Below, piece after piece: positions 4,415 to 62,466 of a stretch of 64,000 bases of DNA. The position numbers and the translations under genes are program-made. Positions within the stretch are counted from its first letter, which is position 1. Each line of letters starts with the position of its first letter. Origin of the DNA: Eledone cirrhosa (taxonomy: Eukaryota); assembly GCA_964016885.1 (NCBI GenBank), contig OZ024742.1:30380001-30444000 (forward strand). Direction: 5' to 3'. A model generated the notes under the pieces. It did not search any database, was not told where the DNA came from, and saw only the letters and a program-made list of their open reading frames with translations.

Positions 4415-4517
4415 TTGTCCTAATAACTTAATTTAGTTATTATTGCACCAACGTGAGGTATATGATTTTTAATGCAATGAAATATCTATGATCGTTGGCA
4501 AATCACTGATGAGGGAC
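4415..4517 (+). ncRNA. Candidate non-circularly permuted hammerhead ribozyme with kink-turn, in a short repeat (4413-4577)
   Basis: GGTAT-A (4457-62), TGATTT (4463-68), GAA-ATATC (4479-86), AAATCA-CTGATGA-GGGAC (4500-17), and GTCC at 4417-20. Homologous to 62303-62470. Confidence 0.6.
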
Positions 4518-13449: not shown

Positions 13450-13528
13450 CGAGTTGCACAAAAGCAGGAAAAAGAAAGAACAAGCCTAGAGGTGACGGAA
13501 ATGAAGCAAACTAGACGTAAAACATCAA

Positions 13529-13642
13529 TTTCCCTCATCAGCTGCCTGTTGGTGGGTTATTGTGATTTAGACACGTAGGGCAGTATCACCACGGCACACC
13601 TAGCTTTGATTAGTTACTATAATATAAATAGCTACTGGGAAA
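13529..13642 (-). ncRNA. Second-family candidate permuted hammerhead (G12>U decayed) within a short repeat at ~13449-13800
   Basis: Minus strand: UUUCCC..GUGAU-A-CUGCC-CUACGUGUC-(U)AA-AUCAC..GGCAG-CUGAUGA-GGGAAA. Confidence 0.55.
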
Positions 13643-13844
13643 GATGTGAAGAAGACAGTTTAAAACGTTATTAGAGAATCTAAGAATATTACATACAGAA
13701 TGTTTTTATAGGAAGAAATAGAAAGATAGGGGCGAGTGAGTGAGAACAGATGTGGTGGAGGTGGGGAGAAAAAACACGTGTGTTCAATCACCCATACATA
13801 TATATGTGTGTATGTAAATATATATATATATGTATATATAATGA

Positions 13845-14230: not shown

Positions 14231-16890
14231 TATATATATATATATTTATATATATATATATTTATATATATATATTTATATATATATATTTATATATATA
14301 GAAATTACATGAATCAAAGTTCTGTTCAAATCATTTATTCGCTTACAATTGTTTCTACCAAACCGAGGTATGGTGTCTTCGGAGCAATTTTTCAATGATT
14401 GTTTACATACATGACCTCCTTTTCAACACAAGAGACATACAGAAACATATGTATATATTGATGCACAGTGGGTTGACATCCATTATAATATTTAAGCATG
14501 GCAGTTTATCTTCAAAGATTAAAGTCATATTAAAAGAAAATTACAACAAAATTAAAGTTATAATACAACATTGGCAGTTTACGAAGAAGATGCAGGAGGA
14601 TAGTTAGAAGAAGTTAGTTACACGTGGGGCATGCACGTGTGTCTTATTTATATAAGATTATAGTGCGGTAGGGTGTTATATGGAATATAAGCACTTTAAG
14701 CGGCCAATCAAGAGTATTATGGGGGTTGTATAGTATTTTATATGTATGATATAGAAGCTTGTGTGCAGAGAAATATTTAAGAATGAGAAGAAAATCTCTA
14801 CCAACCTACCTAGAGCTTTCTTCTCACTCCTAGATAAAAACTTCCCATCTGGCCACAAGTACCATAGCCTTTTAAACAAAAACACCATTAAAATCTCCTA
14901 CTCTACTACGCCTAACATAGCATACCACATAGCTAGTAGCAATAAAAGAAAAATTAATTCTTACTTCCAACAAACTAAATCACAACAGGCGATAAACCTT
15001 CATAATAACATTATATCAACTAACCCTAATAACAATAGTAATAGCACTAGTGTAAGCAATAACGCTGTGAACATCAACCCCCATAACCATAATCCTATAG
15101 CTACCTTCCGACTTCTACACAACTTAATAACCGGCAGACTAACACCCAGAATAATTGTAACTGTAGATCAAATAGAACCTGCCCTTTAGATAAAAAATGC
15201 TTAATCAAGGATATAATATACTCATGCACAGTCACAACTAGCAACTCTTCTGAAACCTATATAGGCTCTACTTCAAACTGCTTCAAAACTAGATACAATT
15301 CGCACCTCCACTCTTTCAAAAAACACAGTCTAGCCAACTCCACTTCACTATCTAGCTACATACACTATCTAAAAACTAAAAATAAATCTTATACACTTAA
15401 ATGGGAAGTGATAGGTAACGCGACATCGAACAAACAACCTAATAAATTTTGTAACCTCTGTCTACTAGAGACCCATACTATCATCTTCTCAAACAGTAAC
15501 CTCCTTAATAAAAAATCAGAAATGTTCGCGTCTTGCCAGCACCGCTTCCGACACTCCTTCCAAAACTTTAAACCCAATATATAAACCGTCACCACCTCTA
15601 GCAACTAACCTCAAGGGCACACCTTACACCACATCTCCACACTCAATGATCCACATTAACACAAATAGTGACTTCCTTCTAGAACCTTTTACCCTAGAGA
15701 TATCCCCCATGTACTTCTGCTTTTGGTATAATTGCCTTCAATTACTTAGACTACATTACACCACTATATAATTAATGTAAACTTTAAACACTGAATGGGT
15801 TGTGCTAATGTTGTTCTGTGTATGGAGTGCCATCATTGGATAATTTATTAACATAAAAGAACTATATAACCTATATGCTGGGTACAATGAATTATGTACA
15901 AGTGATATATGAGTTGTACATACATGTATGACTTGATGGTCGGATTGGTGACATTGTGAGTGAGAATTGATCTCTGGTCTACCCTAGTGATATTTAACTT
16001 TGCCATGCAATCAGACATGCACTGACCCAGAGCTTACCGGGAGTTATATATAGAAGTGATTATAATAAAACCCTGCCAGGTTCTGCGGGTATACTACACT
16101 TACAAAGATCATTGATTTGAGGATCTGACTCTTCATGTAGAATATTCAGTTGTGGCACTCTATGATAGAGGGTAATCATCCTAATATGAACACCTTTAGT
16201 ACTTCTTAATAGACTAGACTGTAATTTAATGATAGGATACTTATACTTTGAAACTGTTTATAACCTATATGATAGGGACTCATGTGTGACACCATTTATT
16301 GTACATTAGGATAATAAATTTTAGTTATAGAAATCAGCTAGTTACCTCCCCTCACGCATTAACTCCCCTTAATCACACACACACTTCCGGAAAATAATAC
16401 GATGTTAAGCCTCGCAACAAAAACAACCTGCTCTATAATATTGGATTAAAGAATATTCCAACCTAATTCATCAAGCATCCAATATTGAATCATCGTAGAT
16501 TATGTGAAGGACATATAATCTATATATTACGTTTCCTGGATTGTGAAAATGGTGGTATATACGAAAAACCATAACACTGTTTTGCTTCTCATTCTTAAAT
16601 ATTTCTCTGCACACACGCTTCTATATCATACATATAAAATACTATACAACCCCCATAATACTCTTGATTGCCCGCTTAAAGTGCTTATATTCCATATAAC
16701 ACCTTACCGCACTATAATCTTATATAAATAAGACACATGTGCATGCCCCATGTGTAACTAACTTCTTCTAACTATCCTCCTGCATCTTCTTCGTAAACTG
16801 CCAATGTTGTATTATAACTTTAATTTTGTTGTAATTTTCTTTTAATATGACTTTAATCTTTGAAGATAAACTGCCATGCTTAAACATTAT

Positions 16891-17071
16891 AATTGTTTCT
16901 ACTTTAGGCACAAGGCCAGCAATTACCCAGTGCATTACTGGTACTTTATTTTATCGACCCCGTAAGGATGAAAGGCAAAGTCAACCTCGGCGGGATTTGA
17001 ACTCAGATCGTAAAGGCACGTAACTATGCTGGAAAGCATGGCGTCCGACCCTCTACCGATACTGCCAATCC
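16891..17071 (-). mobile_element. Meta-like tRNA SINE inserted in one arm of the PLE inverted repeat
   Basis: Full SINE. It is absent from the partner arm near 14485, with a short AAT duplication. Confidence 0.9.
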
Positions 17072-24324: not shown

Positions 24325-24590
24325 AGTCTCGGGGTCTCGGGGTTCAATCCAGTGTAACCACAGTAAGTAAGGTACTCAATACATTAGGTCCCAGATTCAA
24401 GCCATTTACCACAACCATGGGTCACCTTATGTCTTGTGAGGGGAAACAATTGAAAAAGTCGAGTCAAAATATACCCTCCTGAAGATGGAAATAAAGTGGA
24501 CAGAGGTACCTGCGAGGAATCGAATAATAGATGAAAAGAATTGATTAAATTACTCGTCTGTTTTCCGTCTCCAGGGGGTATTTTACCCAA
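24325..24590. mobile_element. PLE-type pseudo-LTR fragment with short fold-back (24467-24495 / 24561-24584)
   Basis: Shares CACAGTAAGTAAGGTACTCAATACATTAG with 30611-30665; contains CTGAAGA. Confidence 0.5.
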
Positions 24591-38065: not shown

Positions 38066-39286
38066 GTGATACTGAAGGGCGTGAGGAAAAGTACTCAATA
38101 CCGAAATAGAGTTGAAATATTCATTCATTATAGCTAAACAATGATCCTTGTTATTCTTGAGTTTACCCTCCTCCCCCCCCCCCCTACTTATACATGCATT
38201 AATGAATAAAATGTTTAATTGATCGAACAAATGAATGCTCATCATCGAAAATGGTGGAGGACCCATTACTTTATATACATATATATATATATATGAGTCC
38301 AGAAATAGCCGTCGAAACGGCTTGAGCTCTGCCGTCGGAGTTAAACATTTTCCTATAAATATAACTCTATCTTCTGATGAAGGACTAACATCCGAAATGT
38401 TAAGACTCTTTTGCTACTATATCAAGGGTTAAACTAATATATTTCTTCAATGTACTGTGTCGTTTATTTTGTTATTTCTGTTTACATTTTACACACATAT
38501 ATACATATATATGTGTGTGTGTCTGTTTGTGCGTGTGAGTGTGAGTGTGAGCACGTGTGCGTGTGTGTGTGTGTATGTGTGTCTGTGTCTGTGTCTGTGT
38601 GTCTGTGCGTGTGTGTGTGTGTCTGTGTGTGTGTCTCTGTGTGTGTCTCTGTGTCTGTGTGCGTGTGTGTGTGTGTCTGTGTGTGTGTCTCTGTGTGTGT
38701 GTGTGTGTGTGTGTGTGTCTGTGTGTGTCTGTGTGTGTTTCTGTGTGTCTGTGTGTCTGTGTGTGTCTGTGTCTGTATGTGTCTGTGTGTCTGTGTGTGT
38801 GTCACTACATATGTTTTCTACATATATTTTCCTACACAAGATATTTTATCTTAGGTTCCTTTATAGTTTTCCGTTTTTTTTTTACTATATTTTATTTCAT
38901 GTCCTTTAGTTACAAAAGACCCCTCTTATTACCTGCTGTTGTTTTTCTACCAGCTTTTCAATATTCTATTCTAAATGCAGTGATTATTTTTCTTTCTTTC
39001 CCCCTCTAGATTTGATAATTGATTTAACTTCCAGTTGAGAATACTTCAGCAGTTACACAATATTACTAAGCTATTACCCTTTATTTTTATCCTTTTGTTA
39101 CCATTTAGCTCAGTTTCAAATATTAATCTATCGCAACTATAATATACCTTCTTCTCGACATTTTCTTTCATTTGTGTGTTTTTTGTTAACAAAGCGTACT
39201 TCATTAATTCCAAACTCTCTATAATGTATAATAACCTTATCTTTATTTCTTTTACTATATATAATATGCTATTACTGTCTTCTATT

Positions 39287-45437: not shown

Positions 45438-45979
45438 CTATTGAAGACAATGGAAGGAAGAAATATAATTTATAAACAAAGCAGTTGACTGGGGAAAGTT
45501 TGAAATGTAATGTGTGTGCATCCCAATACAAATAATCATAATAATAGTTGAGAAAAATTAAATAAAGTGGTGGGTTGGCAGTATCGGTGGAGAGTCAGAC
45601 AACATGCTTTGCAGCATAGAGGTATGTCCCTTTACATTTTGAGTTCAAATCCAGCCAAGGTTAGCTTTGCCTTTCATTCTTACGCAATCAATAAAATAAA
45701 GTACCAGTAATGCACTGATGACAATTTAATTGACTTCTCGCTTCCCAAACAATTGCTGGCCTTGTGCCTAAAGTAGAAACAATTATAATCACCCTTCCCA
45801 TGAGTACAGGCTGAAGCATACATATAGTATTGACCCCACCCCCTCCCATGGGTACAGGCTGAAACGTACATCTGGTACACACCACCTTCATCTCCCACTC
45901 CAATGTCCTAACACTCTGCTCCCTCACACACACACACACACCCATATACCCCCCTCCCTACCAAAACCCCACAGCCCAC

Positions 45980-47285
45980 ACACTCTAAAGTGGTCATGTA
46001 GGTATCATGACAAAAAGCACCCAGCACACACTGTAAAGTGGTCATGTAGGTATCACGACAAAAAGCACCCAGCCCACACTGTAAAGTAGTCATGTAGGTG
46101 TCACGACAAAAAGCACCCAGTCCACACTGTAAAGTGGTCATGTAGGTGTCACGACAAAAAGCACCCAGTCCACACTGTAAAGTGGTCATGTAGGTGTCAC
46201 GACAAAAAGCATCCAGTCCACACTGTAAAGTGGTCATGTAGGTGTCACGACAAAAAGCACCCAGCACACACTGTAAAGTAGTCATGTAGGTGTCACAACA
46301 AAAAGCACCCAGCCCACACTATAAAGTGATCATGTAGGTGTCACAACAAAAGCACCAAGTCTGCCCTGTAAAGTGGTCATGTAGGTGTCACGACAAAAAG
46401 CACCCAGTCCACACTGTAAAGTGGTCATGTAGGTGTCACGACAAAAAGCACCCAGTCCACACTGTAAAGTGGTCATGTAGGTGTCACGACAAAAAGTACC
46501 CAGTCCACACTGTAAAGTGGTCATGTAGGTGTCACGACAAAAAGCACCCAGCACACACTGTAAAGTAGTCATGTAGGTGTCACAACAAAAAGCACCCAGC
46601 CCATACTATAAAGTGATCATGTAGGTGTCACAACAAAAGCACCAAGTCTGCCCTGTAAAGTGGTCATGTAGGTGTCACGACAAAAAGCATCCAGTCCACA
46701 CTGTAAAGTGGTCATGTAGGTGTCACGACAAAAAGCACCCAGCACACATTGTAAAGTAGTCATGTAGGTGTCACAACAAAAAGCACCCAGCCCACACTAT
46801 AAAGTGATCATGTAGGTGTCACAACAAAAGCACCAAGTCTGCCCTGTAAAGTGGTCATGTAGGTGTCACGACAAAAAGCACCCAGTCCACACTGTAAAGT
46901 GGTCATGTAGGTGTCACGACAAAAAGCACCCAGTCCACACTGTAAAGTGGTCATGTAGGTGTCACGACAAAAAGCACCCAGCACACACTGTAAAGTGGTC
47001 ATGTAGGTGTCACGACAAAAAGCACCCAGCACAGACTGTAAAGTGGTCATGTAGGTGTCACGACAAAAAGCACCCAGCACACACTGTAAAGAGGTCATGT
47101 AGGTGTCACGACAAAAAGCACCCAGTCCACACTGTAAAGTGGTCATGTAGGTGTCACGACAAAAAGCACCCAGTCCACACTGTAAAGTGGTCATGTAGGT
47201 GTCACGACAAAAAGCACCCAGTCCACACTGTAGAGTGGTCATGTAGGTGTCACGACAAAAAGCATCCAGTCCACACTGTAAAGTG
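45980..47285. repeat. 48-bp tandem satellite (~27 units) grown out of a SINE/RTE-tail repeat that continues to ~47433
   Basis: Unit CACACTGTAAAGTGGTCATGTAGGTGTCACGACAAAAAGCACCCAGTC runs directly into ..TTGGCATTAGGAAAGGTATCCAGCTGTAGAAAC. Confidence 0.95.
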
Positions 47286-47439
47286 ATTGGCATTAGGAAA
47301 GGTATCCAGCTGTAGAAACCAATCTATAATCAGTTGTATGAGCAAGACATGGTCAGCTGACCTCAATTTGCCTCAAATAAGACAATCTGTCTAACCCATG
47401 CTAGTGTGGAAAAATGGACATTAAATGATGATAACTTAC

Positions 47440-62362: not shown

Positions 62363-62466
62363 GTCCCTCATCAGTGATTTGCCAACCATCATAGGTATTT
62401 CATCGCATTAAAAATCAGATACCTCAGGTTGGTGCGAGCAATAACTAAAATAAGCTATTGGGACAA
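62363..62466 (-). ncRNA. Candidate permuted hammerhead with kink-turn and fully intact core, sense to the EXOSC10 pre-mRNA (repeat 62303-62520)
   Basis: UUGUCCC..CCAAC-CUGA-GGUAU-C-UGAUUU-UUAAUGCGAU-GAA-AUACC-UAU-GAUG-GUUGG-C-AAAUCA-CUGAUGA-GGGAC. Confidence 0.65.

What the first reader, a model, noticed from the sequence alone, without database searches (positions are those of the whole stretch)
13529..13642. A divergent repeat family uses the same C-B-A hammerhead order with entirely different stems
Seen on the minus strand: stem III GUGAU/AUCAC, cut triplet AUA, stem I CUGCC/GGCAG, a 9-nt linker ending in C before (U)AAA, CUGAUGA, and GGGAAA complementary to a distal 5' UUUCCC. Both families also share CCCA(A/G)UAGCU(U)AUUU just after that distal strand. 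All three helices therefore covary between the families. This copy has G12>U and a degraded K-turn region, so it is probably dead. A much weaker, partly deleted candidate lies at 24404-24495 (TTGT-GAGGG-GAAACAA..CCCTC-CTGAAGA-TGGAAA). Inference: a class of retroelement-borne permuted ribozymes, probably in PLE pseudo-LTRs.
Basis: partly seen in the sequence, partly recalled or inferred. Interest (0 to 1): 0.8.

Follow-up and report, generated by a model that had tools for sequence, protein, structure and literature searches.

The report
Rewired hammerhead ribozyme in Naiad retroelements
This is a decayed copy of a likely self-cutting RNA whose parts lie in a scrambled order around an extra predicted four-way junction; the same design sits at the tail of a subset of Naiad jumping genes in other organisms, a group reported to lack ordinary hammerhead ribozymes, but cutting is untested.

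Summary
The motif is real and not chance. Its order (cut site, GAAA, CUGAUGA) is the non-circular 'type SGC' hammerhead of Eckert et al. 2023, reported there only from metatranscriptomes. This copy is probably dead (G12>U), but 7 of 9 family copies have G12, and a related family has 202 exact pattern hits, a 531-nt unit, a fixed 3' end and (TA)n targets.

The 'linker' pairs with an upstream strand Y, and a hairpin lies between Y and the distal strand X. Y carries the conserved G-C pair of stem II (8 of 8 distinct motifs), so stem II is likely split from CUGAUGA and joined through a four-way junction. All six helices show compensatory changes.

The same design lies on the sense strand outside the ORF in 9 of 80 Naiad-type loci from metagenomes (0 antisense, 1 per 5.3 Mb shuffled) and, by eye, in several published Naiad consensi. 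That would explain the unexplained 'HHR core/half-core' in Naiads. No Naiad ORF adjoins the motif in this genome, and cleavage is untested. The candidate at 24404-24495 is not supported.

The parts
13456..13795 (-). Family-2 element: 5'-truncated 3' end of a non-autonomous Penelope-like unit, flanked by (TA)n on both sides; boundaries approximate
   Evidence: 13712-13740 matches a high-depth word shared with abundant repeats
13637..13642 (-). Strand X (UUUCCC), pairs with the strand after CUGAUGA; added helix
   Evidence: sequence; 6 bp; MFE contains it; covariation in relatives
13612..13636 (-).
13607..13611 (-). Strand Y, inferred 5' strand of stem II; decayed here (AAUCA; GAUAC/GAUCC in L289/L291)
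   Evidence: G-C at Y1-11.1 in 8 of 8 distinct Naiad motifs
13590..13600 (-). 5' strand of the stem III extension / K-turn-like loop, decayed
   Evidence: sequence; extension covaries in family 1 (helix 4)
13579..13589 (-). Block S: stem III 5'-side strand GUGAU, cut nucleotide A (13584), stem I strand CUGCC; predicted cut between 13584 and 13583
   Evidence: analogy with hammerhead numbering
13570..13574 (-).
13562..13569 (-). Block G: (G>U)AAA plus stem III strand AUCAC; G12>U likely inactivates this copy
13551..13561 (-). 3-nt bulge, GA>AA decayed K-turn-like strand and 3' strand of the stem III extension
   Evidence: AAU/AGU-GA-UC in L004, L005, L038, L289
13529..13546 (-). Block C: stem I strand GGCAG, CUGAUGA core, then GGGAAA pairing with X
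62363..62464 (-). Family-1b copy of the same design with intact core
4417..4517 (+). Family-1a copy of the same design with intact core and a gap-free four-way junction

Best explanation
The locus is a decayed, 5'-truncated copy of a short repeat that carries a likely self-cleaving hammerhead in the scrambled order cut site - GAAA - CUGAUGA, in which stem II is predicted to be supplied by an upstream strand and tied in through a four-way junction, a design that likely comes from the 3' end of Naiad Penelope-like retroelements. Shown: strand order X-H-Y-S-G-C; six helices with compensatory changes; intact core in most relatives; sense-strand position outside the ORF of Naiad-type elements; fixed 3' ends, 5' truncation, lengths above one unit and (TA)n targets in the young family. 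Inferred: Y/IIb stacks on the A9-G12 pair as stem II (its first pair is G-C), the strand leaving A9 turns out into helix X, and X, H, Y/IIb and the core form the junction; a K-turn-like loop in some lineages bends the stem III extension back to stem I. Inferred function: the RNA cuts after H17 as a monomer; because the two products stay paired through X, Y, stem III and its extension (about 20 bp), the cut would be readily re-ligated, giving monomer circles or nicked templates that a PLE reverse transcriptase copies from a fixed internal start into more-than-unit insertions. This copy (G12>U, Y decayed) would not cut.
For: searches (not chance; 149 hits vs 15 control for a stem-blind pattern; 202 vs 0; G12 in 7 of 9; 25 G000 copies: 93.1% of 817 cells paired vs 82.1% shuffled; 20 of 33 pairs with two-sided changes, present in all six helices; slid controls 28-46%; 9 of 80 Naiad-type loci, all sense and outside the ORF; 0 antisense; 1 full hit in 5.33 Mb shuffled, 8 of 9 core hits also had X, H and Y, the ninth being cut by the contig start, against 1 of 27 in shuffles; Y1-11.1 is G-C in 8 of 8 while the base after A9 is C, G or U; X, H, Y abut with no gap in 6 of 8; carriers' relatives have N-terminal GIY-YIG, CxC, DKA, C-terminal RT; G000 Naiad remnants group with four motif-bearing loci, support 0.987), 39 (by eye, the published O. 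bimaculoides and O. vulgaris Naiad 3' ends share A-CUGCC, GUGUC-GAAA, AR U-GA and GGCAG-CUGAUGA with this family), 117 (27 loci: common 3' end, 0.19-1.63 units, 11 above one unit). Type SGC hammerheads cleave in vitro (PMC10085705).
Against: No cleavage data; a break between A9 and 10.1 has not been tested in any paper I saw. No Naiad ORF adjoins a motif in G000; the ancient G000 Naiad family shows no recognisable motif at its 3' end and no young Naiad was found, so what moved the 95-100% identical family 1a is open. 71 of 80 Naiad-type loci lack the full motif, including 0 of 41 in two large clades and L210, L213, L215 with 322-931 nt of 3' sequence. In G000 family 1 the junction is looser: 10.1/11.1 are G-U, A-U, U-A or G-C in 16 of 25 rows and mismatched in 9, and the G-C rule does not hold. 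Alignment A5 was partly chosen by pairing of stems I and III (21 of 25 rows) and its rows are related, so its shuffle test is optimistic. Scanner limits were widened after seeing L274. 5' ends of copies do not pile up at the cut site (2 of 27 within 6 nt). This copy's own fold is unremarkable (z -0.36).
Confidence: 0.72

Rival explanations
1. One reading: GGGAAA/UUUCCC (X helix) is stem II and the linker before GAAA is unpaired; Y and H are accessory.
For: X directly follows A9 as stem II normally does, covaries (helix 1) and is in the nested MFE. In family 1a it begins with G10.1.
Against: The base after A9 is not G in 7 of 8 Naiad motifs, whereas C11.1 is kept and pairs with G of Y in 8 of 8; Y/IIb covaries.
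Confidence: 0.12
2. The motif no longer cuts, or cuts negligibly; it is kept as a folded signal that the PLE protein binds to start reverse transcription.
For: Fixed 3' ends lie about 70-80 nt past the core and copies run through the cut site; in an anole PLE, hammerhead cleavage was not needed for insertion in vitro and no reads ended at the cut site (PMC11167929, passages).
Against: All catalytic positions (CUGANGA, GAAA, UH) are kept across elements with 28-55% RT identity while every stem changes.
Confidence: 0.1
3. The G000 families descend from, or are moved by, C-terminal-endonuclease PLEs (Neptune/Poseidon/Hydra type) rather than Naiads.
For: Only these PLEs were found young and intact in G000 (775-aa frames); fragments often lie next to the units; L038's upstream sequence loosely resembles a decayed C-terminal endonuclease end (by eye).
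Against: Their 3' ends carry type I hammerhead-like motifs or none, never the SGC design, in the loci read; adjacency is across (TA)n, a shared target; every ORF-linked SGC motif found is on a Naiad-type RT. Mobilisation in trans is compatible with a Naiad origin.
Confidence: 0.15
4. Adjacent tandem units fold together into an ordinary (circularly permuted) dimeric hammerhead, as other PLE hammerheads do.
For: Family 1 is often tandem; PLE hammerheads are proposed to act as dimers (PMC4209133, passages).
Against: An ordinary fold needs the strand after CUGAUGA to pair with the strand before GAAA; they are not complementary in the motifs parsed, and stem III is already 4-6 bp plus an extension.
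Confidence: 0.03
5. Chance arrangement in AT-rich repeat DNA.
For: This copy alone is degraded and folds no better than shuffles.
Confidence: 0.01

Closest known systems
Type-SGC hammerhead ribozyme (HRIMA-1 and type-SGC variant; Eckert, Friedrich, Weinberg, Weinberg 2023, PMC10085705)
   Same: Block order S-G-C; complete core; short link from stem I into the strand before GAAA (2-3 nt in 6 of 8 motifs here, typically 3 there); stems I and III form a pseudoknot.
   Different: There stem II is formed by the strands next to GAAA and next to CUGAnGA, blocks are assumed uninterruptible, and all examples are from metatranscriptomes, none from genomes of known organisms. Here those two strands pair with separate upstream strands (Y, X) around a hairpin, and the host is an animal genome and Naiad-type retroelements.
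Type I hammerheads in pseudo-LTRs of canonical Penelope-like elements (Cervera and de la Pena 2014, PMC4209133)
   Same: Sense strand, near the element's 3' end, repeated in tandem units; proposed role in cutting and circularising the precursor.
   Different: Those are circular permutations with a weak stem III that likely need dimers; this one is non-circular, with a long stem III and a four-way junction.
'HHR_core' and 'HHR_half_core' in Naiad PLEs (Craig et al. 2021, PMC8557442)
   Same: CUGANGA and GAAA present in Naiad 3' UTRs but not fitting hammerhead descriptors; (TA)n targeting.
   Different: No structure was proposed there; several of those consensi fit the present design by eye, nematode Naiads do not.
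Non-LTR retrozymes of animals (bioRxiv 10.64898/2026.07.22.740005)
   Same: Non-coding tandem units with one hammerhead per unit, derived from PLE pseudo-LTRs.
   Different: Defined there by type I hammerheads and searched with type I descriptors, which would miss this design; the unit here is 531 nt in arrays seen up to 1.6 units.

Membership tests
Hammerhead ribozyme | CUGAnGA core next to stem I | tested here: met
Hammerhead ribozyme | G12-A13-A14-A15.1 | tested here: met
   Not met in this copy (UAAA); G12 in 7 of 9 family-2 copies; GAAA in the 8 Naiad motifs, where the scan required it
Hammerhead ribozyme | U16.1-H17 cut site between stems III and I | tested here: met
   AUA here; GUU, GUA, GUC, AUU, CUC in Naiad motifs
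Hammerhead ribozyme | Stems I and III with covariation | tested here: met
Hammerhead ribozyme | Stem II begins directly after A9 with G10.1-C11.1 | tested here: not met
   C11.1 pairs with G of an upstream strand in 8 of 8; base after A9 variable
Hammerhead ribozyme | Site-specific self-cleavage | not testable with these tools
   No RNA run listed; needs in vitro assay
Hammerhead ribozyme | Match to Rfam hammerhead models | tested here: not met
   No hammerhead among the 150 listed of 219 window matches; 0 matches at gathering score in 20 Naiad loci including all 9 motif carriers
Type-SGC hammerhead | 5'-3' order S, G, C | tested here: met
   against PMC10085705
Type-SGC hammerhead | Uninterrupted blocks; stem II between the G-block and C-block strands | tested here: not met
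Type-SGC hammerhead | Extra helix joining distal stems I and II | not tested
   Not searched for; the X/H junction and stem III extension may take its place
Naiad PLE | ORF with N-terminal GIY-YIG, CxC, DKA, C-terminal RT upstream of the motif | tested here: inconclusive
   Met for metagenome carriers at the level of tblastn coverage and for related proteins; not met for any G000 copy
Naiad PLE | (TA)n insertion bias, fixed 3' end, tandem and inverted copies | tested here: met
   shared with other PLE clades, so not diagnostic
Non-LTR retrozyme | Non-coding tandem unit with a hammerhead in each unit | tested here: met
   Family 1, 531-nt unit; family 2 tandem only in L290
Non-LTR retrozyme | Type I hammerhead | tested here: not met
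   SGC order
Non-LTR retrozyme | Circular RNA in vivo | not testable with these tools
   No RNA run listed
K-turn | 3-nt bulge with tandem G-A/A-G pairs | tested here: inconclusive
   Fits families 1a-1d and family-2 majority by sequence, but the pattern required the GA; absent in several Naiad motifs

The most novel reading that the evidence does not exclude
A widespread, so far undescribed hammerhead architecture: the non-canonical S-G-C circle opened inside the catalytic C block, between A9 and 10.1, with a four-way RNA junction built into the core. It is the missing ribozyme of a large part of the Naiad clade (cnidarian, acanthocephalan, ostracod and cephalopod consensi, plus metagenome elements), is active as a monomer, holds its cut ends for re-ligation, and has seeded its own class of retrozymes in this genome.
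Probability: 0.6. Interest if true: 0.88.

Novelty: new variant of a known kind. Interest (0 to 1): 0.8.

Why it matters
It would be the first non-circularly permuted hammerhead in cellular genomes with covariation support that my searches could find, and it breaks the stated assumption that the three hammerhead blocks cannot be interrupted. It offers a structural answer to a published puzzle (Naiads 'lack canonical HHR' yet show cores and half-cores), implies that hammerhead and retrozyme surveys with standard descriptors miss a whole class, and is testable in days with 100-130 nt transcripts. A core that tolerates a junction at A9/10.1 also offers a new attachment point for ribozyme switches.

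Tried and rejected
Rfam: only microsatellite-driven miRNA matches among those listed in the window, nothing in 20 Naiad loci. The repeat finder was swamped by microsatellites. DNA search with the finding gave 1 other locus; a search with L038 was captured by an unrelated insert (loci L040-L068 not used as family members). A 26-nt motif from the published octopus Naiad 3' end had no match at 3 mismatches. The PLE at window 14482-16893 and other C-terminal-endonuclease PLEs were checked as possible parents and rejected: no SGC motif. 20 SGC loci extended upstream, and all earlier loci, showed no convincing Naiad ORF (one weak hit in L196, opposite strand). 20 G000 Naiad remnants showed no motif downstream. 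A pile-up of 5' ends at the cut site was not seen. No RNA holder listed; contigs of X1-X3 cannot show ends or strand. L288 was dropped from family 2 as a chance pattern hit; L281 was left out of the tree (short RT). The HMMER library search only showed that the RT family is large (5862 hits). Candidate 24404-24495 rejected. No covariance model was built because the fold has two pseudoknots.

Full report
Observation. The window lies at G000:C3:30380001-30444000 in a 3.0-Gb, microsatellite-rich animal assembly. In hammerhead terms the order is distal strand, cut site (block S), GAAA (block G, here UAAA), CUGAUGA (block C). A scan demanding 5-bp stems I and III finds three such motifs in the window (13541-, 62374-, 4506+) and 2 in 3.54 Mb of shuffled window, none of the two with a 6-bp distal helix. 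Rfam does not see it.

Family. Pattern and DNA searches gave 9 loci (10 copies) of the finding's family, 73-77% identical to it over 77-142 nt where BLAST aligns them. The sister family has 202 exact pattern hits against 0 for the control. In 27 independent loci it has one 3' end about 70-80 nt past the core followed by (TA)n or (CA)n, 5' truncation at scattered points and lengths of 0.19-1.63 copies of a 531-nt unit, 11 of 27 above one unit. A pattern that fixes only core letters and the GA pairs, not the stems, gave 149 hits against 15 and many subfamilies.

Corrected anatomy. On 25 G000 copies 93.1% of 817 cells pair (shuffled 82.1%, slid 28-46%) and each of six helices (X, H, Y/IIb, stem III extension, III, I) has two-sided changes, 20 of 33 pairs in all. 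The rows are related and 21 were picked for pairing in stems I and III, so this test leans in favour; X, H and Y were not selected for in the search pattern. In 8 distinct motifs from other organisms the first Y/IIb pair is G-C in 8 of 8, the base after A9 is C, G or U, and X, H and Y abut without a gap in 6 of 8. From established hammerhead knowledge (G10.1-C11.1 stacks on A9-G12; recalled) I infer that Y/IIb is stem II and that the chain is broken between A9 and 10.1, with X, H, Y/IIb and the core forming a four-way junction. G000 family 1 is looser at this point. In the finding copy X (6 bp), H (8 of 9), I and III (5 bp each) survive; G12, Y and the K-turn-like loop have decayed.

What is known. 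Eckert et al. 2023 (PMC10085705; main text read through the Discussion; supplement passages only) named this order type SGC, showed cleavage at 0.007-0.19 per minute, assumed blocks cannot be interrupted, and found none in genomes of known organisms apart from one weak GCS case. Craig et al. 2021 (PMC8557442; passages; supplement parts 1, 24, 25 and passages) report that Naiads lack canonical hammerheads but list 10 'HHR_core' and 8 'HHR_half_core' entries. Reading their consensi by eye, the X-H-Y-S-G-C design fits the 3' ends of the three Acropora Naiads, the two Octopus Naiads (X helix imperfect) and four more that file order assigns to Clytia, Morbakka, Pomphorhynchus and Darwinula; Beroe fits with a very short stem I, Euprymna is degenerate, and two nematode Naiads have the ordinary order. 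I saw only part of the 54 consensi and ran no tool on them. The octopus motif shares A-CUGCC, GUGUC-GAAA and GGCAG-CUGAUGA with the finding's family.

Tool test of the Naiad link. G000 holds old, broken Naiad RT remnants; their full-length relatives have N-terminal GIY-YIG, CxC, DKA and C-terminal RT. 80 metagenome loci were fetched by RT similarity alone. The full design is in 9 of 80 (L205, 206, 208, 209, 216, 218, 272, 274, 277), all sense, 8 behind the ORF and one in front; 0 antisense; 1 in 5.33 Mb of shuffles (limits widened once to admit L274). It is in 6 of 17 loci of the RT clade that holds the G000 remnants and 0 of 41 in two other large clades; many contigs stop early, but L210, L213 and L215 have 322-931 nt and lack it. 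Earlier AI notes report twisters in clam-type Naiad tails (not tested here), which would fit a slot filled by different ribozymes. Against a simple story: no G000 motif adjoins a Naiad ORF, the old G000 Naiad family ends without a recognisable motif, and the only young PLE found is a C-terminal-endonuclease family without it.

Mechanism. Shown: sequence, order, covariation, placement, insertion pattern. Inferred: cleavage after H17 by a monomer; products held by about 20 bp outside stem I, favouring re-ligation; more-than-unit copies made from a circle or uncut multimer by internal priming, as proposed for PLEs (PMC4209133, passages; PMC11167929, passages, which also found cleavage dispensable in vitro). 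No RNA run was listed.

Novelty. Nine full-text searches found no report of an SGC hammerhead in animals, of a Naiad ribozyme structure, or of a four-way junction at stem II; passages of PMC3088659, PMC10162972, PMC13725137 and the 2026 retrozyme preprint (part 1 and passages; its supplements not seen) showed only 1-2 nt core insertions or type I motifs. Subscription papers were not searched. Verdict: a dead copy of a real, likely active and undescribed hammerhead variant; new variant of a known kind; interest 0.8.

Noticed in passing
L221:73-3951, L216:24-4058 (also L224, L225 by eye): Naiad-type ORFs of 1292-1344 aa with a C-terminal ubiquitin carboxyl-terminal hydrolase domain (PF00443, E 1.6e-29 and 2.6e-26) fused behind the RT.
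   Followed up: partly
L211, last 150 nt: Has hairpin H, Y/IIb (GGCCGC/GCGGCC), blocks S and G, but no stem I partner or CUGAnGA; a deletion, or a half ribozyme.
   Followed up: no
window 14482-16893 (+): 5'-truncated C-terminal-endonuclease PLE (RT thumb, GIY-YIG, 3' UTR) with 313-nt inverted flanks, unrelated to the finding.
   Followed up: partly
window 3304(+), 8386(+), 21723(+), 38374(+), 41356(-): Ordinary type I minimal hammerhead-like motifs of other PLE families.
   Followed up: no
window 44712(-), 50439(-); insert in L005: A SINE-like repeat containing 'GGTCTGATGAGCC' that also interrupts the family-2 copy at C17; not examined as a ribozyme.
   Followed up: no
L311-L320: Young, high-copy Poseidon-like PLE with 775-aa frames whose tail showed no intact CUGANGA in the loci printed.
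   Followed up: partly
L124, L024 3' ends; window about 38290-38350: PLE tail with a type I hammerhead-like motif whose core reads CUGAGAA/UUGACAA and whose stem II holds a long insert.
   Followed up: no
alignment A5 columns 23, 44, 85, 125: Two pairing registers are possible at the junction in families 1a and 1b, like branch migration; could switch the ribozyme on and off.
   Followed up: no
window 45965-47413: Tandem array with a 48-nt period.
   Followed up: no
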